A stretch of 24,129 nucleotides of DNA. It comes from a virus. Taxonomy: Duplodnaviria; Heunggongvirae; Uroviricota; Caudoviricetes. A model generated the notes under the pieces. That model was not told where the DNA came from and ran no database searches. It was given only the letters and a program-made list of their open reading frames with translations. The position numbers and the translations under genes were made by a program. The stretch is from the IMG/VR virus record IMGVR_UViG_2623620491_000014, positions 1 through 24,129 of that record. One strand, written 5' to 3'. How positions within the stretch are numbered: position 1 is the stretch's first letter; each line of letters opens with the position of its first letter. Positions 1,330-9,405 of this stretch are shown piece after piece.

Positions 1330-2394
1330 ATGAGTAAACTATATTCTATACAAATGCTTAGAGGTCTAGCAGCCGTTGCTGTTGTTATTGATCACGTCAC
1401 ACATTACATGCATCAATCATTTGATGGTGAATCGTGGTTGTATTCATCTAACATTTATAATGTAGGTGGTTTTGGTGTTGATCTATTCTTTTGTATTAGT
1501 GGATTCATCATGGTAATCACCACATACAACAGGCCAAGCGGGTTGTCACAATCGTTATCGTTCCTGAAAAAGAGATTTTTACGTATATACCCAACATATT
1601 GGTTTTATTGCATAATTACAATTACACTTCCATTAATTCTATATGGTAAAACGGATCTAATATCAAAATACGATTCACTGTTTTTATTACAAAGCTTTTT
1701 GCTTCTTCCAGCAAAAATTTCCGAAAAATCCTTTAGCCCATTTCTTGGGCAGGGTTGGACTTTGCAATATGAATTATATTTTTATATATTATTTGCGCTA
1801 ACAATTATCTTCTTCAAAGGATTCAAAGTTCCATTTTACTGCGCATTGTTAATGATATCGATGTTAATAATTTCACTCAACATAGATATTAATAGTTACG
1901 TAGATTATCTAGCGTCAAATACAATAATAATTGACTTTATTATGGGTATGCTTTCAGCATATTTTTATGTCAAGGTGAGCGCCAAGGGTATTTCAATAAA
2001 CATTAGAACTGGATTAGCATTGGTTGTTATTTTAATATCATTAATTTCATATATTATAATCAACAAATATCCAATTGATAGAATTATTGTTTTTGGGATT
2101 CCGTCTTTCTTCATCGTCACAATATTTTCGCTAATTAATGTTAACCCATGCAGCTTAACAAATAGAGTTATTATCCAGGCTGGAGAGGCATCATACACTA
2201 TTTATCTTGCGCATATGATTTTTATATGGACTGCAATAAAGTATTCTTATCTACTTAAATATCTTTATCCTGACGCAGCAATATTGCTTGTTTCTCTTGT
2301 TATATGCATTTTTTCATACTTGTTATATCTGTCTTTCGAAAAGCCGTTAACGAATAGACTGATGTCTATCCGAAAAAAACAAGCTCAACTCTAA
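1330..2394 (+). CDS. Acyltransferase family 3 integral membrane protein (O-antigen acetyltransferase-like serotype-conversion moron)
   Basis: 354-aa very hydrophobic ORF with N-terminal MLRGLAAVAVVIDHV and FFCISGF motifs typical of acyltransferase-3 (OafA/Oac-like) proteins. Very AT-rich codon usage unlike the rest of the window. Sits between int and tailspike, where P22-like phages carry O-antigen conversion genes. No obvious Shine-Dalgarno before the ATG at 1330; MLRGL at 1354 is an alternative start. Confidence 0.8.
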   Translation: MSKLYSIQMLRGLAAVAVVIDHVTHYMHQSFDGESWLYSSNIYNVGGFGVDLFFCISGFIMVITTYNRPSGLSQSLSFLKKRFLRIYPTYWFYCIITITLPLILYGKTDLISKYDSLFLLQSFLLLPAKISEKSFSPFLGQGWTLQYELYFYILFALTIIFFKGFKVPFYCALLMISMLIISLNIDINSYVDYLASNTIIIDFIMGMLSAYFYVKVSAKGISINIRTGLALVVILISLISYIIINKYPIDRIIVFGIPSFFIVTIFSLINVNPCSLTNRVIIQAGEASYTIYLAHMIFIWTAIKYSYLLKYLYPDAAILLVSLVICIFSYLLYLSFEKPLTNRLMSIRKKQAQL

Positions 2395-2434: not shown

Positions 2435-4321
2435 TCAATTGACAATGACTTGACCTGAAGTGGTAATTTCAAACCAGAAATCCCCAGCCGTAGTAACTTT
2501 TGCTCCAGATGCAACCAGTTTGTCTGCTCCATTGATTGACCATGTAAAACTAGGAGATGAAGGATTTTCTCCTGATGTTTCTCCGGCCGATGAAACTAAA
2601 TTAACAATTGGAACTCCTGATATACTTTTATTAACTATCAAAATATATGTTGCAGTTCTTCTTGCTCCAGTGCTCGTTGCCAAGTTACCTACATGAACGA
2701 TAATCATCCCTCCATATGTTGTTTGATAGCCTTGAGTACTTCTTAGTGAACATATCTCTCTTGCTGCACCACCAGTGAAATTTATTGCTGGAAATAAGAT
2801 ATTATGATGCACCCAATCAACATAACCTCCATTAAATGTCTGTACACCTTTAGGAATGGTACAATTGTCTATGGTTGCAATCGCCCCAATACCATCAACT
2901 ATGATATCTGCTGAATTATTATCAGAAGAAGGGCTGGATTTACTATTTCTTATAGTTATATGGTTTTTAACTGAATTTAAACTTTGAACATGCAAAAGGT
3001 TCGCCCATCCGTCCTTTGACATATTATTTGCGTGAGCAAATGCACCTTCTATAACTACATTTTCATTATATCCTTCAGTATCGCTTGATCTCGCTGCAAA
3101 GCCAGCCCTACCATTACTTTCTGCTCCGCATGAAGTCATAACAAAACAATCACAGTTTCTTATGTAATGACCATGATTCACATTTGAATCAGAAGCTGTA
3201 GATATTGCTGAACAATAATTCATATAACCCCATTCCCAGCCATTATTTCCATTTGAGCTTGCATACCCTGAAGTTACTAAAGTGCTAGTATGTTGCTTGT
3301 ATATTGGATTATTGAGATAATCAAATTTAACTCCACTCGCCGAATTAGAACCAGCAATGATATTTCTAATATCAAGAATAAACGTATTACCAAAGTAAAA
3401 CCCATTCTGTGAGGCAGAAAATGCTTTTACTCTATCAATGGTTCCTCTACTTGCAAATTCATGGCTAATACCATGATACCCTCCGCGAGTAGCAAAATCA
3501 TTTAGTTTGAAATACTGTGTTGCTTTAGTGCTAGATGTGCTAGTTGTATTTTTTATTATAGACGCCCAACTTGGCAGATCTGGCCCTGCACGTAATTCTG
3601 ATGTTGAAATTCCTTTCCCTTTAATTTCTATACTATCAATCTGATCTGCCTCATTATTCCAATCATCATAATGGATTTCTGTTGATACTAACCTCACTCC
3701 CCTTGGAAGTTGCAATACACCGCCTTTTGTATTTGCATCAGGCAATGATGATTGTAACTGTGCAATCCCTTCGTTTATGCTTGCTCCTGTATCTACCAGC
3801 GGGTCCCCAAAGTCGTCTGAAGAAATTACCCTTTCAGCAAAAACCTCACGGGAATATTTATTTGTTCCCCCATTTGCTGCATATGGTCCAATTGATGCGC
3901 CAACTGTGCCTTTTCCATAATTAATACTTTCATCATAGCCAACAAGCCCAGCGCCTTCATTGCTATTCAATTCTCCGCGAAGTTGATCAGGGTCATACTT
4001 CAGCACATTAGGAAAATAAAACTGCTGCGCACCATATGCATCATAAACAGCCATAGAATGGCCTTGCACAGTTACGAACTTGGCAATCTGTCCGTTATAT
4101 ACCGGGTAACCAGCAGCGTTAATGATGATTGGTTGCGATACAGGAACGTGAGAGCCGTCTTCGTTCTCCACATAAACCTGAATCTGGTTTTCAGGATTTA
4201 CAGGGTCAGTGTCAATTTTACCGATATAAATTTTGCCATTGGCAACCGCTTTAAAAGAACGAGCCATAGTGAAGAGTTGCGAAGGCATGCTTACCACAAC
4301 ATTGGCTGTAATGTCTGTCAT
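2435..4321 (-). CDS. Tailspike protein: P22 gp9-type N-terminal head-binding domain fused to a distinct receptor-binding/enzymatic domain
   Basis: 628-aa ORF. N-terminal ~115 aa ([10 protein letters not shown]...[32 protein letters not shown]...[12 protein letters not shown]...NVLKYDPDQ) matches the conserved head-binding domain of P22/Sf6/HK620 tailspikes. The remainder is Ser/Thr/Asn/Gly-rich, consistent with a beta-helix. GGAG Shine-Dalgarno upstream of the ATG at 4321. Confidence 0.92.
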
Positions 4322-4420: not shown

Positions 4421-5323
4421 TCAGTAGTTATGTACTGAAGGAGGTAATTCTTTATTCTTAAGTCTCATCCATGCGGAAAGATTCGTTGGTCCGTCTGGCT
4501 CATTAATATCAACATCTCGTGTGTGGTTTATTAAAACGTCTCTCGCCATTCCGATAACATACGAGAATTCATGACCGTAGTCGTAGCATCTGCCGGAATA
4601 GTTCGATTGAATTTGTTTTAGCGCCGGATACAGTTCGCGGAATAATGCCTGTGAGCGGTTGGCATAATCCCATAACCATACAAGGCTGTTTGCTTCTTTT
4701 GCAGAAAGCTCGTTGGTTTTCTTCTCTTGTTTGCCGATAAATTCACCTTCAAGCACTACCCTGTGGATGTACTCTACGGCTTGCGGTATCTGAGATGCAT
4801 CAAGCTCTTCAATACTTTCCACATTGAAACGCTGATGAATCATTGCATAAGCTTCTGGGTACATTAGATGCTTTTTGCTGACTAGCATATTTACAGCATC
4901 ACGAAGCGGAGTCCTGTCATCAACAGATGTTTTCTTACGTGCATTTTCTGCCTTTCCCTTTGTCCAGTAGTCATGCAGTACAGTAAAGCATTCTTCCTGG
5001 TACTGAATCAGTTTATCACGGATGTCAGCACGAACTTTCTCAGGGTTGATGCTGAACAGCCATCCATTTAACTTCTTCAAAGGAAGGCAGAGTAGCTTAC
5101 GAAGCTTCCCATCAGCGGCAACCATGTTCATATGAACACAGTTGAATTTGCTAATCTGCTTCATGAGTTTTGTTTGCTGCGTTGACCAGCTCATTCCAAG
5201 GTTTTCAACGATTGGCTTCATCGCAACATATGCAACTCCGGCAGCCATGGCGGTGATAATTTGCTGACCGTTGAATGGTACGTAAGAGGTGTTCACTGCT
5301 TCTAAAATTGCTATACTATTCAT
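4421..5323 (-). CDS. ant: Antirepressor Ant (P22 immI)
   Basis: Protein from the internal ATG at 5323 ([47 protein letters not shown]...) matches P22 Ant (about 300 aa). GGAG Shine-Dalgarno precedes this ATG. The ORF-track extension to 5389 would run into arc and is not believed. Immediately downstream of arc as in P22. Confidence 0.88.
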
Positions 5324-5391
5324 GTTGGTTTTTCTCCACGGATTTACTGACAACCGAAGCCCTGACTGTTCCCGCAGTTGGGGCTTCAACT
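5315..5391 (+). ncRNA. sar: Putative sar-like antisense RNA, complementary to the ant translation-initiation region (boundaries approximate)
   Basis: In P22 a ~68-nt antisense RNA (sar) is transcribed across the arc-ant intergenic region, opposite to ant. Here that interval (5324-5391) is 68 bp and contains a composite stem-loop (gaagccc ... gggcttc, about 5356-5387). Placed by synteny only; promoter and exact ends not verified. Confidence 0.35.
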
Positions 5392-5553
5392 TTACGCGCC
5401 AATGCGCCCTTCCTTCTTAAAGCTTTCCATTACTCTATGATAAATCTCAGAGTTAACAGACCGACCATTCTCTTCCGCCACCTTGCGGACCAAATCCAAT
5501 ACTTCTTTAGGCCACCGCAAATTGAACTGCGGCATCTTGCTCATTCCTTTCAT
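5392..5553 (-). CDS. arc: Arc repressor (ribbon-helix-helix)
   Basis: 53-aa protein [53 protein letters not shown] is essentially the P22 Arc sequence. Start taken at the in-frame ATG at 5553; the ORF track's longer form starts inside the Arc operator. Confidence 0.93.
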
Positions 5554-5567
5554 ATTCACCTCACAAT

Positions 5568-5588
5568 ATAGGTCCACCGTGGACCTAT
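5568..5588. promoter_or_regulatory. Mnt operator (palindrome) in the Pant/Pmnt divergent promoter region
   Basis: ataggtccac-c-gtggacctat: perfect 10-bp arms around a central base, matching the P22 Mnt operator half-site (TAGGTCCAC). Confidence 0.8.
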
Positions 5589-5595
5589 TGAGAAT

Positions 5596-5616
5596 ATAGT
5601 AGAGTGCTTCTATCAT
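5596..5616. promoter_or_regulatory. Arc operator
   Basis: atagtagagtgcttctatcat: the 21-bp Arc operator sequence known from P22, between arc and mnt. Confidence 0.8.
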
Positions 5617-5643
5617 GTCAATACACTAACTTGGAGTGATGGC

Positions 5644-5895
5644 ATGGCTAGAGATGATCCGCACTTTAACTTCCGTATGCCTATGGAAGTAAGGGAGAAA
5701 TTAAAATTCAGGGCGGAGGCGAATGGGAGATCAATGAACTCCGAGTTGTTACAAATCGTCCAAGATGCTCTATCAAAACCATCGCCTGTGACTGGATATC
5801 GCGACGATGCAGAACGACTCGCTGATGAGCAGTCAGAGCTTGTTAAGAAGATGGTGTTTGATACGCTGAAGGATTTGTACAAAAAACCCACCTGA
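5644..5895 (+). CDS. mnt: Mnt repressor (maintenance of lysogeny; represses Pant)
   Basis: 83-aa ORF MARDDPHFNFRMPMEVREKLKFRAEANGRSMNSELLQIVQDALSKPSPVTGYRDDAERLADEQSELVKKMVFDTLKDLYKKPT, near-identical to P22 Mnt as I recall it. Divergent from arc-ant. Confidence 0.93.
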   Translation: MARDDPHFNFRMPMEVREKLKFRAEANGRSMNSELLQIVQDALSKPSPVTGYRDDAERLADEQSELVKKMVFDTLKDLYKKPT

Positions 5896-5904
5896 CGGTG
5901 GGTT
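5885..5904. terminator. Bidirectional rho-independent terminator shared by mnt (+) and the convergent cargo operon (-)
   Basis: aacccacc-tgac-ggtgggtt stem-loop flanked by A6 on the 5' side and TTTTATT on the 3' side, so it reads as hairpin plus U-run on both strands. The mnt stop codon lies in the loop. Confidence 0.65.
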
Positions 5905-5907
5905 TTA

Positions 5908-6327
5908 TTAGTGCTTGTATAGGTTGAACTCTCTATCAAGCCATATAACAAAAAATGTCGATCCAAGACGATAACCAACCATGGCTTTCAAATCATCAAA
6001 TCTAAAAGCCAAGAAATGATCTACGTCTTCCGTTATATGACTGGGGATACCTGCTTTAATTGCACCCCTTGCAATCTTCTCAAATCCAAGCTTATGCCTA
6101 CCTTGCTGCTTAATCTCTGCCCATGTTAGTTGACTTAATCTGTATAATTTATCAGCTAAGCCAGCTTTCTCATCTTTTTGGCATTTCGTTATGCAGTGAG
6201 AGCTTTGGATGTAACAGAATGAAAATTTCGGTTTCTTTTGATCTGAATTCCCCCCTGACTGCGGCCCTAACTTTAACTTACCTGTAGATTCAGCAGGGGG
6301 GATAATCCTTTTAGATTTTCTTGCCAT
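5908..6327 (-). CDS. Hypothetical 139-aa protein, candidate toxin/effector partner of the upstream DUF4065 gene (possible RelE/ParE-like C-terminal region)
   Basis: ATG at 6327 lies 4 nt after the upstream gene's TAA (TAA-CGAG-ATG), suggesting translational coupling. Basic N-terminus (MARKSKRIIPP...KKPKF), a C-x6-C-x3-C cysteine cluster, and a C-terminus ...KAMVGYRLGSTFFVIWLDREFNLYKH that resembles the GYRL/hydrophobic-strand/terminal aromatic-His pattern of RelE/ParE-fold toxins. The ORF-track start at 6402 is a TTG and overlaps the upstream gene; not believed. Confidence 0.6.
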   Translation of the reverse strand: MARKSKRIIPPAESTGKLKLGPQSGGNSDQKKPKFSFCYIQSSHCITKCQKDEKAGLADKLYRLSQLTWAEIKQQGRHKLGFEKIARGAIKAGIPSHITEDVDHFLAFRFDDLKAMVGYRLGSTFFVIWLDREFNLYKH

Positions 6328-6331
6328 CTCG

Positions 6332-6775
6332 TTAGTTAATCCGAGTTGCAAAGTACTCTGCCATCTCCTTAGAGCTAATTTCAGAACCACCAACACCCTC
6401 AATATAGTTTGATCTCCATGGTGACTCTTCGTGTGTCATGTTCCTCAGTTTCCAGGCAGAAAATTGCCCAAAAACATCCCAGACTTCTTCTAATAGCTCT
6501 AACTGTTCTTCGCTGAATTTTTCAGCATCAAAAGACTCTGGAGAAGGGATAGCGCCATTACCATATTGTTTATAACGGCGATAAAGCTCAGGGACAACAG
6601 GGCCATGCATCCAAGCTTCCATCTTATTCTGAAAAAGAGGCTCGCCAAGCAACGCCAATGAAAAACCCTGAGCATAGTAAACAAGCTTTTGTAATTTTAA
6701 ATTAGAGATTGTGTCACCGCTATCCTCGTCACACCGCGACAGGAAGTAGTCGGCGACATCAAAACAAGTAAGCAT
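6332..6775 (-). CDS. DUF4065 / Panacea-domain protein (SocA/GepA-like; candidate antitoxin or abortive-infection component)
   Basis: Protein MLTCFDVADYFL...ISNLKLQKLVYYAQGFSLALLGEPLF...EAWMHGPVVPELYRRYKQYG... carries the hallmark DUF4065 motifs (KLQKL.YYAQG, W..GPV.PE.Y). ATG at 6775 has a GGAGG Shine-Dalgarno 7 nt upstream; the ORF track's GTG at 6781 is less likely. Confidence 0.75.
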   Translation of the reverse strand: MLTCFDVADYFLSRCDEDSGDTISNLKLQKLVYYAQGFSLALLGEPLFQNKMEAWMHGPVVPELYRRYKQYGNGAIPSPESFDAEKFSEEQLELLEEVWDVFGQFSAWKLRNMTHEESPWRSNYIEGVGGSEISSKEMAEYFATRIN

Positions 6776-7149
6776 GAACACACCTCCATCTTGATAGCCA
6801 CAGCTAAGTATCCAACTATGTCAAATGTCATTTAATACTATAACAAAGCTATCAGCAATCCTTCGGAGGCTAACTTACAACCACTTTAGCGACATGTTTA
6901 AACCATTACGTTTCACATTTACTGCATTTTCGCCGAAGTTACCTATAAGGTAATGTCACATTTCCTGCAAGTTTCATGCAATGTTGAAAAGTGAGCTATT
7001 CACTTTTCTATGACACCAAACACCAAAAATAGCACTTTTTGCTAAATCATTCGTCCAAGTTGTGGATGGTTTGTCGTTGACACGTTTTCACACACCACTC
7101 CACCAATAAAGTATCATCTGGTATCCTGCTCAAAACTAAGGAGGTTGGC

Positions 7150-7539
7150 GTGAAGCAATTTCTTACTGCTATGTTCTTATTCATATCTTTTGGGGCTACA
7201 GCAGAGTGCTGGGTCGTTGGAGATATGCGCGGAATAAGCTATTCAGAACGAAATAATTTCCATCCGGAAGAAGATGGTTTTAGTGGAACATTCATCATTA
7301 AGACAAGCGGTGAAGATGCCAGCATCACATATTCTGGGACAGATGCGGGCGGCATGGCTTACAAAGCATTGTCTAAAAACTCCATCATAGGAATCGGCGC
7401 GAATGGCGAAACTCAACGCGTTATCGACTCATGGGTAATACATCCTACTGGAACAGTTTTAATGTCAAAAACCATTTCCGGTTATGGAAATATGGATTCA
7501 ACCAAAGCTTTTGTTGGAAAAGTAAAAAGAAAATGTTAG
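7150..7539 (+). CDS. Small secreted protein (moron) with N-terminal signal peptide; function unknown
   Basis: 129-aa ORF starting at GTG 7150 with a strong AAGGAGG Shine-Dalgarno 5 nt upstream. N-terminus MKQFLTAMFLFISFGATA-ECW looks like a Sec signal peptide; C-terminal Cys. Opposite orientation to the flanking late genes and preceded by a 368-bp AT-rich non-coding region. Confidence 0.7.
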   Translation: MKQFLTAMFLFISFGATAECWVVGDMRGISYSERNNFHPEEDGFSGTFIIKTSGEDASITYSGTDAGGMAYKALSKNSIIGIGANGETQRVIDSWVIHPTGTVLMSKTISGYGNMDSTKAFVGKVKRKC

Positions 7540-7563
7540 CGATTGAATCCAATTTCCCATACG

Positions 7564-9405
7564 TTACTGCTGTGTTGCCTCAGTAGCAAACAGCGGTCTG
7601 ATGGCATTCGCAGCGTTATTTATCGCTCTTTCATAGGCTGGTGTTCCTGCTTTGGTGTTTGCCAAACGAAGAAGCATATTCCTTGCTGCTTTGGACTCAT
7701 ACAAGCGCATCATTGCACCAAAACCAGCCTCAAGCCCCATTGATACGCCAAGAGTCGCAGTTGCGCCAATCGTCCTTATCCTGTTGGCTTGCGATTGCCC
7801 CGTCTGAGTTACTACATTTGCGGTGTCTGACCTTGCTGTTTGCTGTAGAACTTCATGAAGAGCATCAAGCTCTTTCATGTGCTTTCCAGAAAAAATAGTG
7901 TTGTAAATTTCACCGCCTGACTGAGATTTCAGCTTATTAACTTCCGTGATGAACTTGGCTGGAGAGTCACCGGCCTTTTCCGCTATTTTGCTGACGTAAG
8001 CTGCACGCATAGCATCTTTCCCCTTATCATCCAATGCGCTCCAGATTCGTTTCACGTCAGATGGTTTTCTGCTTAATACAACGGTATTTATAAGTTCAGG
8101 GCTGGATTCACTACTTGCCTTATTGAGCTTGTTAGCAATGTTTTTATTAAGCACCTTATTATAAACGTTTGCATAATCGGAATTTGCTTTAAGGTATTTT
8201 GCTGCGTCTGAAGCACCGAGGTTTTTAGCAACTGCGTTACGAAGGTCTTTTGACATTGCATTCTCTACCATATTGGTAGCTGCTTTTGCCTGGTTGGGGA
8301 AGACCATAGCATCTCCCTGAACATTAGATCTAAATGCCGTTCTGTGCTGACGCAGGAGATCAAACGTAACATCCAAATCAGTTGCAGGGTTTGCTAATTC
8401 TTCACGTAGGTTACGCAAGGATGTAAGCAGGCTTTGATTGGCAGACGTCCCAAGCCGTTCCTGTCTTGCGATCGCTGTATTCAGAGCATTCATGGTATTT
8501 GTGGTATCAACTGCGGCATTACCCATTTTATTGGTGACGTCATTGATAACAGCGCCAGCGGCATCCTTCCGTCCCCTTAACGTGGTGGTCAGAGATTTCA
8601 CCACATCATCAGGGTTGTACTCACCAAAACGGTCAAAATAATTACTTACCAGCTTACTACGCGTTGCATATTGCTCCGCTCGCTTTGAGCCTGTCCCGAG
8701 CAAAGCCCCCTCGGCATCCTGAGTAAGGCCGCGAGTGAAAGCATTTTTCGGCGTGATTACATCAGATGTCATTGGTGTCACGCCCATCGATTCTGATGTG
8801 GCAATTTTTTTCGCCACTTCTGGCGAAATATCGCCTTTTATAGCCGTCATTCCACGCCCTATTCCCTTTGCTGCTGCGGAAAGAACACCCTGAGCGGCAA
8901 GGTTGACTCCGGCATTTTTAGCTGCATTTTGTGCGAAATCGCCTTTCTGATTTGCGGCCTCTGCCAGTGATCCAATAGCCATGCTTCCTGCCGTTCCAAC
9001 TCCTGGAACTAAATACCCACCAATTGTTTCACCGGCTTGCGCGTAGGGGTCTGTCGGTCTGTCTACTGGACGATAAACATCATCCAAAACCTTGGGTCCA
9101 CCAAGCCCCTGACTGATTGCATTAATCAGACTTGCGCCGCCCTGCAATACGTCAAATGGTATGTTCACCAGACCACGACCAGCCTGTTCTGCAATTTGCC
9201 CTGCACTTTGACCACCAGTGAGCCAATCGCCAGCTTGTTGCATCAATGATGGTTCTTCCCGTGTTGGTGCATTATTGGCCTGATTAACTGTTTGTTGCTG
9301 AACAGCCTGACCAGCAAAATACTCATCAATGGCGATGCCAATATCTTCGGTGCTCGTACCATCAGGAAAGGTAAATGTCTTACCGTTTGCAGTTACTTTC
9401 ATCAT
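7564..9405 (-). CDS. Ejection (internal virion) protein, P22 gp16 homolog
   Basis: 613-aa ORF at the gp16 position and size (P22 gp16 about 609 aa), Ala/Gly/Gln-rich. Start overlaps the upstream gene's stop (ATGA). Confidence 0.85.

What the first reader, a model, noticed from the sequence alone, without database searches (positions are those of the whole stretch)
6782..7539. Divergently transcribed secreted-protein moron with its own regulatory region and perfect inverted repeats
A 129-aa ORF (7150-7539, +) with a near-consensus AAGGAGG Shine-Dalgarno and a Sec-type signal peptide (MKQFLTAMFLFISFGATA) sits opposite in orientation to the surrounding late operon. It is preceded by a 368-bp AT-rich gap with two perfect inverted repeats: ttacct-ata-aggtaa (about 6939-6953) and gaaaagtg-agctatt-cacttttc (about 6986-7008). 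A possible sigma70 promoter for the divergent DUF4065 operon is TTGCTG-N17-TTAAAT on the minus strand, about 6830-6858. A periplasmic protein in the superinfection-exclusion slot could act on incoming phage DNA entry or on the cell envelope.
Basis: partly seen in the sequence, partly recalled or inferred. Interest (0 to 1): 0.58.

Follow-up and report, generated by a model that had tools for sequence, protein, structure and literature searches.

The report
Secreted Hex-family exclusion gene in P22 sieA slot
The 129-codon gene is real and encodes an exported small beta-barrel protein related to phage 434 Hex, a protein needed to exclude phage P22, and it sits in the exchangeable slot where P22 itself keeps its DNA-entry blocker sieA; the inverted repeats upstream belong to the neighbouring toxin-antitoxin module, not to this gene.

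Summary
The window is a P22-like (Lederbergvirus) prophage with its late operon on the minus strand. ORF 7150-7539 (+) is a real gene under purifying selection (mature-part dN/dS 0.06-0.13). It has a GTG start, an AAGGAGG ribosome site and a Sec/SPase I signal peptide (ATA|EC). The predicted fold is an 8-stranded soluble beta-barrel (pLDDT 87) with conserved Cys near both ends of the mature chain.

It is not an orphan. It belongs to phrog_2651 together with phage 434 Hex ("heterologous exclusion") and Sf6 gp38 (hhalign 98.3%, E 1e-14).

It lies between genes 16 and 9, where P22 has sieA, and carries the same ~40-bp leader as P22 sieA. In about 190 loci that leader precedes at least 12 unrelated cargo families, and 11 of them are membrane or exported proteins.

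The 368-bp gap is not the gene's own regulatory region. Its conserved block 6896-7111, which holds both inverted repeats, travels with the DUF4065/Panacea operon. ORF129 occurs behind at least 15 unrelated upstream contexts.

The 6-nt repeat is at chance level; the 9-nt repeat is not (0.8% of shuffles).

The best reading is a prophage-expressed periplasmic exclusion factor. Its function is inferred, not shown. It is a new member of a known but poorly understood family.

The parts
7150..7539 (+). ORF129: Hex-family (phrog_2651) precursor, 129 aa, GTG start
   Evidence: ORF and translation. phrog_2651 E 9.2e-61. Homology to 434 Hex. Mature-part dN/dS 0.06-0.13. Homologue N-termini (MK...) support the GTG start over RefSeq's Met8 start.
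7150..7203 (+). Signal peptide, codons 1-18 (MKQFLTAMFLFISFGATA); predicted SPase I cut A18|E19
   Evidence: It is the only hydrophobic segment of the protein, residues 4-18. Across the family -1 is Ala in 77/101 and -3 is small or aliphatic. The equivalent site in 434 Hex coincides with the reported N-terminus of the stable fragment sHex (PMC3564112).
7112..7152 (+). Conserved portable leader shared with P22 sieA and at least 11 other cargo genes (CATCTGGTATCCTGCTCAAAACTAAGGAGGTTGGCGTG)
7138..7144 (+). Shine-Dalgarno AAGGAGG, 5 nt before GTG
   Evidence: Read. Invariant in the leaders, although it was part of the search pattern.
7119..7127 (+). Candidate extended -10 promoter TGGTATCCT (predicted start site about 7133-7135)
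   Evidence: Conservation of the leader begins exactly at this TG. 114 of 118 P22-like leaders found with the SD core alone keep TGnTATCCT, and 2 of them read TGCTATCCT. This is an inference; no start site has been mapped.
7087..7117 (+). Alternative promoter TTCACA-N19-TATCAT; its -10 aligns with the -10 (TTTCAT) of the PsieA promoter annotated in P22
6896..7111 (.). Conserved non-coding block ('gapR') holding both inverted repeats and a direct repeat; linked to the Panacea operon, not to ORF129
   Evidence: At least 98% identical in loci where panA is only about 71.5% identical and gapL about 88%. At least 96% identical in all 85 E. coli genomes that have it, with no annotated feature. No Rfam family.
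6986..7008 (.). Perfect inverted repeat GAAAAGTGA-gctat-TCACTTTTC
   Evidence: Arms of at least 9 nt occur in 0.8% of shuffles. The repeat is degenerate in the one locus where the block is truncated and panA is absent (L100).
6939..6953 (.). Perfect inverted repeat TTACCT-ata-AGGTAA (chance-level on its own)
6913..6969 (.). Direct repeat TCACATTT[A/C]CTGCA x2, 43 bp apart, flanking the 6-nt palindrome
6830..6858 (-).
   Evidence: Read. Neither reaches the threshold of the consensus scan.
6332..6775 (-). panA: SocA/Panacea (DUF4065) antitoxin-like gene; likely ATG at 6775 after GGAGG
   Evidence: PF13274 E 1.9e-24. NF047745. RefSeq homologues are 147-148 aa.
5908..6327 (-). Putative toxin partner of panA, 139 aa
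   Evidence: phrog_8366. Weak PADLOC NsnC hit, 9.5e-6. No Pfam family. Replaced by an unrelated gene in the loci with the divergent panA.
7564..9405 (-). gp16-type ejection (DNA transfer) protein, convergent with ORF129; 24 nt between the two stop codons
   Evidence: phrog_770 E 4e-278.

Best explanation
**Proposed function and mechanism**
- ORF129 is a prophage-expressed lysogenic-conversion gene of the Hex family (phage 434 Hex, Sf6 gp38, phrog_2651).
- It is translated from GTG 7150 behind a strong ribosome site.
- It is exported by Sec and cut by signal peptidase I after Ala18.
- It folds in the periplasm into a soluble 8-stranded up-and-down beta-barrel of about 111 residues. Its first and last strands are probably tied together by a Cys20-Cys129 disulfide.
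- It occupies the exchangeable cargo position between genes 16 and 9 of P22-like phages, the sieA slot.
- It is driven by the same short leader as sieA. That leader probably carries its own weak promoter, either an extended -10 (TGGTATCCT) or the adjacent PsieA-type -10.
- The most likely function is superinfection exclusion of P22-like phages from the periplasmic side. It would interfere with an envelope-crossing step, such as assembly of the gp7/gp20/gp16 ejection conduit or virion-borne cell-wall hydrolysis.
- In this reading it is an alternative to the inner-membrane protein SieA.

**Status of each step**
- Shown here: gene reality, family membership, the slot, the shared leader, and the export signals.
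- Inferred: periplasmic location, the disulfide, the promoter, and the exclusion function and its target.
For: **Homology to Hex**
- ORF129 and 434 Hex both hit phrog_2651 (9.2e-61; 1.4e-58).
- Pairwise BLASTP aligns them end to end at 26% identity, E 2e-11.
- hhalign gives probability 98.3%, E 1.2e-14.

**What is known of Hex**
- It is co-transcribed with cI in lysogens.
- hex- lambda-imm434 lysogens of Salmonella no longer exclude P22 (PMC3564112, introduction).

**A second prophage-expressed position**
- A 29%-identical relative sits directly after a cI-type repressor and before N in a lambdoid prophage, which is the rex position.
- The same arrangement is seen in 434, HK446, HK633, Sf6 and Sf101.

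**The sieA slot**
- The gene lies between gp16 and the immI/tailspike region, antisense to the late operon, exactly as sieA does in P22.
- P22 sieA carries the same leader.
- SieA blocks DNA injection through the ejection proteins (PMC10883804).
- 11 of the 12 cargo families behind this leader have an N-terminal transmembrane segment or signal peptide.

**Export**
- The presequence and the A-x-A|x-C-W motif are kept in 101 of 108 family representatives.
- The mature protein has 2 or 4 Cys in 94 of 101.
- The last Cys lies within 3 residues of the C-terminus in 87 of 101.
- The reported N-terminus of the stable Hex fragment (E43 of the 158-aa ORF) is exactly the predicted cleavage site ANS|E (PMC3564112).

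**Fold**
- AF2 gives pLDDT 87 and nine predicted strands.

**Selection**
- Mature-part dN/dS is 0.06-0.13.
Against: - No experiment exists on ORF129 or on any sieA-slot Hex homologue.
- The only biochemical study of Hex assigns it a cytoplasmic role: it blocks RecA-stimulated cleavage of the 434 and P22 repressors and stabilises lysogens (PMC3564112).
- Identity to Hex is only 26%, so the function may have diverged.
- The step at which Hex excludes P22 is not known to me from the sources I could read.
- No consensus sigma-70 promoter is found upstream, and no start site has been mapped.
- No intrinsic terminator follows the gene.
- The fold matches are generic: Foldseek against the PDB gives E above 0.01 and TM below 0.5, so the fold gives no mechanistic clue.
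- I could not inspect the model coordinates to confirm that the two Cys are close.
Confidence: 0.55

Rival explanations
1. ORF129 works like the published model of 434 Hex: a cytoplasmic protein or fragment that protects the prophage repressor from RecA-stimulated autocleavage and so lowers spontaneous induction.
For: - hex deletion raises spontaneous induction about 30-fold in recA+ hosts but not in recA- hosts.
- A 61-residue fragment (sHex) inhibits cleavage of the 434 and P22 repressors in vitro and partly complements the deletion (PMC3564112).
- ORF129 is a Hex homologue in a P22-like phage.
Against: - The whole family carries a cleavable signal peptide and paired Cys.
- sHex starts exactly at the predicted signal-peptidase site and is only strands 1-5 of the barrel, purified with GuHCl (PMC3564112).
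- The study used a 158-aa ORF with 24 extra N-terminal residues and a cytoplasmic MBP fusion. The full-length protein was toxic, as expected for a jammed export substrate.
- Here the gene is unlinked from the repressor and sits in a slot filled almost only with envelope proteins.
Confidence: 0.1
2. ORF129 is a periplasmic host-fitness factor unrelated to phage exclusion. It could be a small-ligand or lipid-binding calycin-like barrel, or an inhibitor of a lysozyme or protease that protects the lysogen in its animal host.
For: - Many phage morons are host-fitness genes.
- Relatives occur in Serratia, Pantoea and Trabulsiella genomes as hypothetical proteins.
- One relative has no obvious phage genes nearby.
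Against: - There is no Pfam, NCBIfam or PDB sequence match to MliC/PliC, Inh, lipocalin or avidin families.
- The two genomic positions recovered are both classic exclusion slots: after cI, and the sieA slot.
- The one genetic phenotype known for the family is phage exclusion (PMC3564112).
Confidence: 0.22
3. ORF129 is a miniature outer-membrane beta-barrel (OmpX/Ail/Lom/PagP-like) that changes the cell surface.
For: - One deposited phage record labels a Hex homologue 'PagP'.
Against: - The mature chain is only about 111 residues, and three predicted strands are only 6 residues long and one only 4, too short to span a membrane.
- There is no C-terminal aromatic insertion signal: only 3 of 101 family members end in F, W or Y, and most end at or just after a Cys.
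- The Cys pairs are conserved.
- There is no Pfam outer-membrane-protein hit.
Confidence: 0.06
4. One reading: the 368-bp gap with its inverted repeats is the dedicated regulatory region (operators and promoter) of ORF129.
For: - The 9-nt inverted repeat is unlikely by chance.
- The block 6896-7111 is unusually conserved.
- The block lies directly upstream of the leader, and a perfect TTGACA lies at 7077-7082 (read).
Against: - ORF129 occurs with at least 15 unrelated upstream sequences and shares only about 35-42 bp with them.
- The block occurs only next to Panacea operons, and there it precedes several different cargo genes: YobH-like, a 62-aa, a 75-aa and a 109-aa protein, and others.
- No -10 element lies at a proper distance from TTGACA.
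Confidence: 0.1

Closest known systems
Phage 434 Hex ('heterologous exclusion'; also annotated 'repressor protection protein') and Shigella phage Sf6 gp38 (PHROG 2651)
   Same: - Same protein family, aligned over the full length.
- Same size.
- Same signal peptide followed by x-C-W, and same C-terminal Cys.
- Prophage-borne accessory gene in a position typical of lysogen-expressed genes.
- Hex is genetically required for exclusion of P22, the type phage of the group to which this window belongs (PMC3564112).
   Different: - Only 26% identity.
- Hex lies downstream of cI in the PRM operon of lambdoid immunity regions. ORF129 lies in the gene 16-gene 9 'ant moron' behind the sieA leader.
- The published Hex mechanism is cytoplasmic (RecA/repressor), which fits poorly with the export signals seen here.
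P22 SieA (superinfection exclusion A; types A-C)
   Same: - Same genomic slot and orientation.
- Same ~40-bp leader with GTG start.
- Both are envelope-located products expressed from the prophage.
- SieA blocks DNA injection by P22-like phages via gp16/gp20 (PMC10883804).
   Different: - No sequence or fold relation.
- SieA is a 162/164-aa inner-membrane protein with three predicted transmembrane helices and a cytoplasmic FxRYPxEAxxFNK motif.
- ORF129 has no transmembrane segment beyond its signal peptide and is predicted to be a soluble beta-barrel.
T4 Sp (spackle) and other periplasmic or envelope superinfection-exclusion proteins (T4 Imm, T5 Llp, HK022/phi80 Cor). This comparison is from my own knowledge.
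   Same: A small secreted or envelope-anchored phage protein made by the resident phage that stops an incoming phage at the envelope. Sp is periplasmic and inhibits the incoming tail lysozyme.
   Different: - No detectable homology.
- Sp is helical, and Llp and Cor are lipoproteins.
- ORF129 has no lipobox (T-A-E-C, with Glu at -1).
- The target of ORF129 is unknown.
Calycin-like soluble 8-stranded beta-barrels (Cap15 receptor domain, NHBA/HpuA C-terminal barrels, lipocalin/FABP/avidin; MliC/PliC-type inhibitors such as PhiA)
   Different: - Sequence identity is 4-13%.
- No family-level sequence match.
- Foldseek TM-scores are below 0.5.
- The resemblance does not go beyond the generic barrel.

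Membership tests
Hex family (phrog_2651; 434 Hex, Sf6 gp38) | Significant full-length sequence similarity to Hex or to the family profile | tested here: met
   phrog_2651 E 9.2e-61 over 116/117 profile positions. Hex hits the same PHROG at 1.4e-58. BLASTP E 2e-11. hhalign 98.3%.
Hex family (phrog_2651; 434 Hex, Sf6 gp38) | About 125-135 aa precursor: signal peptide, x-C-[WYF] at the mature N-terminus, Cys at or near the C-terminus, conserved W (W95) and G-x-x-x-C tail | tested here: met
   Alignments A1-A3; family statistics.
Hex family (phrog_2651; 434 Hex, Sf6 gp38) | Located just downstream of the cI repressor and co-transcribed from PRM | tested here: not met
   ORF129 lies between gene 16 and the immI region. 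Hex-type relatives in 434, Sf6, HK446 and L210 do lie after cI. This is a feature of context, not of the protein family.
Hex family (phrog_2651; 434 Hex, Sf6 gp38) | Confers exclusion of P22 and/or RecA-dependent stabilisation of lysogeny | not testable with these tools
   Phenotypes are reported only for 434 Hex (PMC3564112).
SieA | Position between homologues of P22 genes 16 and 9, antisense to the late operon | tested here: met
   PMC10883804, section 'Diversity of sieA genes'.
SieA | Inner-membrane protein with three transmembrane helices and the motif FxRYPxEAxxFNK; sequence similarity to types A-C | tested here: not met
   The only hydrophobic segment is 4-18. The motif is absent from the translation. 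ORF129 and SieA fall into separate BLASTP clusters at E 1e-5.
Moron (independently expressed insert in a phage operon, in the sense used in PMC2629481) | Absent from related phages at the same position; flanked by its own promoter and terminator | tested here: inconclusive
   Presence/absence and replacement by other genes are shown. The promoter is only predicted. No intrinsic terminator lies between the gene and gp16.
8-stranded outer-membrane beta-barrels (OmpX/Ail/Lom, PagP) | Membrane-spanning strands of about 10 or more residues; C-terminal aromatic insertion signal; Pfam OMP family match | tested here: not met
MliC/PliC periplasmic lysozyme inhibitors | Pfam MliC family match with its conserved motifs | tested here: not met
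Bacterial lipoproteins (Llp/Cor/Bor-type exclusion lipoproteins) | Lipobox [LVI][ASTVI][GAS]C with Cys at +1 | tested here: not met
   The sequence is T-A-E-C. The residue before Cys is mostly E, S, Q, D or N across the family.

The most novel reading that the evidence does not exclude
- The Hex family is a class of exported, disulfide-bonded periplasmic beta-barrel proteins that block P22-type phages during envelope crossing. In this reading they are a periplasmic counterpart of inner-membrane SieA, swapped into the same socket.
- The published cytoplasmic RecA/repressor mechanism for 434 Hex would then be a secondary or artefactual effect of a mis-started, unexported fragment.
- The gene 16-gene 9 junction of P22-like phages would be a fixed 'expression socket': a ~40-bp promoter/RBS leader that accepts interchangeable envelope-acting defence genes. 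At least 12 cargo families use it.
Probability: 0.35. Interest if true: 0.65.

Novelty: new member of a known kind. Interest (0 to 1): 0.48.

Why it matters
- SieA was the first envelope-level injection block worked out for a short-tailed phage, and only about a third of P22-like phages carry it (PMC10883804). This analysis shows what fills the same slot in many of the others: a dozen unrelated small envelope proteins behind one shared leader. One of them is a homologue of Hex, the only one besides SieA with a reported exclusion phenotype against P22.
- If ORF129 and Hex act in the periplasm, they give a second, soluble and easily purified handle on the P22 ejection conduit.
- That result would also call for a re-examination of the published Hex mechanism.
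- Practically, the family-wide start-codon and signal-peptide evidence corrects RefSeq models that begin at Met8 and so remove the start of the signal peptide.

Tried and rejected
- **Sequence family searches.** Pfam, NCBIfam and PADLOC gave nothing for ORF129. Pfam on 61 relatives gave nothing consistent. A profile search of PDB sequences gave nothing.
- **RNA.** Rfam gave no family in the gap. Only the sar RNA of immI was found elsewhere in the window. Folding the gap as RNA gave z -1.3 on the plus strand and z -2.7 on the minus strand. I did not build on this, because the sequences are too similar for covariation analysis.
- **Small ORFs in the gap.** The 42-aa and 45-aa ORFs have no support and were not pursued.
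- **CRP sites.** The TCACATTT direct repeats look like CRP half-sites, but the partner half-sites are absent. I rejected this on reading.
- **Linkage to gp16.** I tested whether ORF129 is tied to one gp16 type. It is mostly with one type (83 of 92) but occurs with seven, and that type also accompanies other cargoes. This is no evidence of functional coupling.
- **Locus retrieval.** The search for related loci with the wide alignment failed because no conserved block was found. The genome-contig scan returned only one locus, from Symbiopectobacterium, and I did not analyse it further.
- **Literature.** Hofer et al. 1995, the source of the PsieA annotation, is not held in the library.
Full report
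**1. Context**

The window is a P22-like (Lederbergvirus) prophage or phage. Its gene map is as follows:

| Feature | Coordinates | Strand |
|---|---|---|
| Integrase | 1-1158 | + |
| O-antigen-type acyltransferase | 1330-2394 | + |
| Tailspike | 2435-4321 | - |
| ant | 4421-5389 | - |
| sar RNA | 5324-5391 | + |
| arc | within 5392-5616 | - |
| mnt (Arc + Repressor_Mnt domains) | 5644-5895 | + |
| 139-aa gene | 5908-6327 | - |
| SocA/Panacea (DUF4065) gene | 6332-6775 | - |
| Gap | 6782-7149 | |
| ORF129 | 7150-7539 | + |
| gp16, gp20, gp7 and the rest of the virion genes | from 7564 | - |

The nearest sequenced phage is Salmonella phage Emek, 99.1% identical over 6300-7600. It annotates the gene as 'orf129, similar to Sf6 gene 38'.

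**2. The observation**

In dinucleotide-preserving shuffles of the gap:
- A perfect repeat with arms of at least 6 nt and a 3-8-nt loop appears in 43% of shuffles, so TTACCT/AGGTAA alone means nothing.
- Arms of at least 9 nt appear in 0.8%, so GAAAAGTGA/TCACTTTTC is beyond chance.

The suggested minus-strand promoter TTGCTG-N17-TTAAAT is present but matches only 7 of 12 positions. The consensus scan reports no promoter-like site in 6600-7700.

**3. The gene is real and its product is exported**

- Against diverged alleles, the mature part has dN/dS of 0.06-0.13.
- RefSeq starts the protein at Met8 (122 aa). Relatives have MK...
- An exhaustive profile search finds 126 representative clusters, nearly all 120-140 aa and matched end to end.
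- Of 108 full-length representatives, 101 have C[WYF] near residue 20, preceded by a basic, hydrophobic presequence of about 18 residues.
- Position -1 is Ala in 77 of these 101, and -3 is A, S, V or T in 83.
- The mature chains have 2 Cys (39 cases) or 4 Cys (55 cases).
- The last Cys lies within three residues of the C-terminus in 87.
- Only 3 end in an aromatic residue.
- There is no lipobox and no twin-arginine motif.
- AlphaFold2 gives a confident model (pLDDT 87, pTM 0.76) with nine predicted beta-strands: three of 6 residues, one of 4, and five of 8-14.
- Foldseek finds nothing significant in the PDB or the viral set.
- Short strands, a Cys-terminated C-terminus and the lack of an aromatic end signal argue for a soluble periplasmic barrel rather than an outer-membrane one.
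- The Cys20-Cys129 disulfide is an inference from barrel topology, in which the first and last strands are neighbours. I could not read the model coordinates.

**4. What it is: a Hex-family protein**

A 29%-identical relative (P0149) lies immediately after a cI-type repressor and before N in a lambdoid prophage. Used as a query, it matches at 60% identity the gene after cI in phages 434, lambda-imm434, HK446, HK633, Sf6 (gene 38) and Sf101. In phage 434 that gene is annotated 'repressor protection protein'. This is Hex.

The evidence for homology:
- ORF129 and Hex both hit phrog_2651.
- They align end to end (BLASTP E 2e-11).
- hhalign gives 98.3% probability.

According to Shkilnyj et al. (PMC3564112):
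- Hex is co-transcribed with cI from PRM.
- It was named for 'heterologous exclusion', because lambda-imm434 lysogens of Salmonella exclude P22 and hex- lysogens do not (they cite Susskind & Botstein).
- They propose that Hex protects the 434 and P22 repressors from RecA-stimulated cleavage.

Their work used a 158-aa ORF starting at the first AUG. Translating that ORF shows 24 extra residues ahead of the signal peptide. It also shows that their unexplained stable fragment 'sHex' (E43-N103) begins exactly at the predicted signal-peptidase site ...TSANS|ECW.... It covers only the first half of the barrel. They also found the full-length protein toxic on over-expression. These details fit an exported protein better than a cytoplasmic one, but I have no direct evidence of localisation.

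**5. The slot and the leader**

In P22 the gene after gene 16, in the same antisense orientation, is sieA. Its upstream sequence reads ...TTTTTTCATGGTATCCTGCACAAAACTAAGGAGGTTGGTGTG, which is the same leader as at window 7112-7152.

Upstream side:
- In 84 loci retrieved by protein similarity, ORF129 follows at least 15 unrelated upstream sequences, and most keep only this 34-42-bp leader.
- In E. coli genomes the homology breaks at window 7112/7119 and at about 7152-7156.
- The same leader precedes other genes: epsilon34 gene 14 (hkcB-like), a YobH-family gene and others.
- Scans of viral contigs show at least 12 unrelated cargo families behind it, SieA included.
- 11 of the 12 have an N-terminal transmembrane segment or signal peptide.
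- Three loci carry ORF129 followed by a second cargo gene, the 149-aa or the 140-aa family, behind a second copy of the leader core.

Downstream side:
- ORF129 is joined to seven different gp16 3' ends, so the cassette recombines on both sides.
- One allele group has swapped both the leader and the signal-peptide codons, with a breakpoint near codon 18.

The variability of this 'ant moron' region is known (PMC2629481). I did not find the shared leader described in the papers I read.

**6. Where the promoter may be**

- Conservation across distinct leaders begins exactly at TG of TGGTATCCT (7119-7127), drops at the three positions after it, most sharply at one that is only 37% conserved, and resumes through AAAACTAAGGAGGTTGG.
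- In a scan that required only the SD core, 114 of 118 P22-like leaders keep TGnTATCCT, and two of them vary only the 'n'.
- This is the pattern expected of an extended -10 promoter followed by a 15-17-nt 5' UTR.
- The sequences are related by descent, and the block may also be kept as a recombination junction.
- The PsieA promoter annotated in P22 ends just upstream, with its -10 at TTTCAT. The window has TATCAT at the aligned place, with TTCACA 19 nt upstream.
- Either way, the expression signals that travel with the cargo lie within about 60 bp of the start codon. No start site has been mapped.

**7. The gap and its repeats**

- The right part of the gap (6896-7111) holds both inverted repeats and a 14-nt direct repeat 43 bp apart.
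- It is 98-100% identical wherever a Panacea-type operon is the upstream neighbour. This holds even where panA is about 71.5% identical, the toxin gene is replaced and the left part of the gap is about 88% identical.
- It is at least 96% identical in all 85 E. coli genomes that have it and is unannotated there.
- It occurs with several different cargo genes, and it is absent from the other ORF129 contexts.
- In the one locus where it is truncated and panA is missing, the 9-nt repeat carries two non-compensating changes.
- So the repeats belong to the Panacea module, or to the junction between it and the leader, and not to ORF129.
- What they do is unresolved. They could be an operator or upstream region for the toxin-antitoxin operon, whose best promoter candidate is the extended -10 TGTTATAGT at 6845-6837. 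They could be a structured leader, since the minus-strand fold has z -2.7. Or the block may simply be homogenised by frequent crossovers.

**8. Verdict**

I file ORF129 as a new member of the Hex family, placed in the sieA socket of a P22-like phage. Most likely it acts as a periplasmic superinfection-exclusion factor.
- Family membership: about 0.95.
- Export: about 0.85.
- Exclusion function: about 0.5.

The more novel possibility is that the whole Hex family works in the periplasm and that the published cytoplasmic mechanism needs revisiting. This is open and directly testable.

Noticed in passing
window 7112-7152; L207 (P22) 1832-1870 minus strand; L003 4000-4034; L005 3838-3871: A ~40-bp leader (TGGTATCCTG-nnn-AAAACTAAGGAGGTTGG-n-GTG) is shared by P22 sieA, ORF129 and at least 10 other unrelated small genes at the gene 16-gene 9 junction of P22-like phages. 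11 of the 12 cargo families are membrane or exported proteins. It looks like a fixed expression socket for exchangeable cargo.
   Followed up: yes
window 6896-7111: A non-coding block is 98-100% conserved next to Panacea (DUF4065) operons whose coding sequence has diverged to about 71% identity. It contains a 9-nt perfect inverted repeat, a 6-nt palindrome and two 14-nt direct repeats 43 bp apart. It has no Rfam match and no annotation in 85 E. coli genomes. Its function is unknown.
   Followed up: partly
window 5908-6775 (minus strand): A Panacea/SocA-like antitoxin gene (PF13274) is followed 4 nt later by a 139-aa gene (phrog_8366; weak PADLOC NsnC match, 9.5e-6). This is probably a PanA-toxin pair or defence module inserted between mnt and the sieA slot. 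The partner gene is replaced by an unrelated one in the loci with the divergent panA.
   Followed up: partly
L212 (phage 434) 2429-2905; PMC3564112: The 'sHex' fragment reported in 2013 (E43-N103 of a 158-aa ORF) starts exactly at the predicted signal-peptidase site of the 134-aa Hex precursor and spans only the first half of the predicted barrel. The published full-length ORF carries 24 residues upstream of the likely true start.
   Followed up: yes
L004 3553-3921 and L006 8390-8758 (RefSeq WP_001334102.1): RefSeq/PGAP starts this protein at Met8 (122 aa), which removes the start of the signal peptide. The GTG start seven codons upstream, with AAGGAGG in front, is supported by homologue N-termini.
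   Followed up: yes
window 5613-5978 (minus) versus 5644-5895 (plus): The 121-aa minus-strand ORF is probably spurious. The plus-strand 83-aa ORF is mnt (Arc + Repressor_Mnt domains). The 74-aa 'Arc' ORF probably starts later, since arc is 50-53 aa in related phages and the Arc domain match covers residues 25-74. With sar RNA (5324-5391) and ant, the immI region is complete.
   Followed up: partly
L075-L087 alleles (for example L075 4944-5330): One allele group of ORF129 (88% identity overall) has a different leader and a different signal peptide (MKLIIAMAFFVFSFSVSA) but a 96%-identical mature part. The mosaic breakpoint falls at the signal-peptide/mature junction.
   Followed up: partly
L025 5926 and 7691; L173 2352 and 4117; L065 4125 and 4989: Three loci carry two copies of the leader core on the same strand: ORF129 followed by a 149-aa membrane-anchored protein (L025, L173) or by a 140-aa apparently cytoplasmic protein (L065). 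In L065 the second copy lacks the TGGTATCCT element.
   Followed up: no
window 1330-2394 (plus strand): An Acyl_transf_3 gene lies between the integrase and the tailspike. It is probably an O-antigen acetyltransferase (serotype conversion), as with oac in Sf6. The Sf6 comparison is from my own knowledge.
   Followed up: no
L211 2252-2632: A 31%-identical family member lies among SRAP, UmuC/UmuD-like and secretion-ATPase genes with no obvious phage genes. The family is therefore not confined to the two prophage slots.
   Followed up: no
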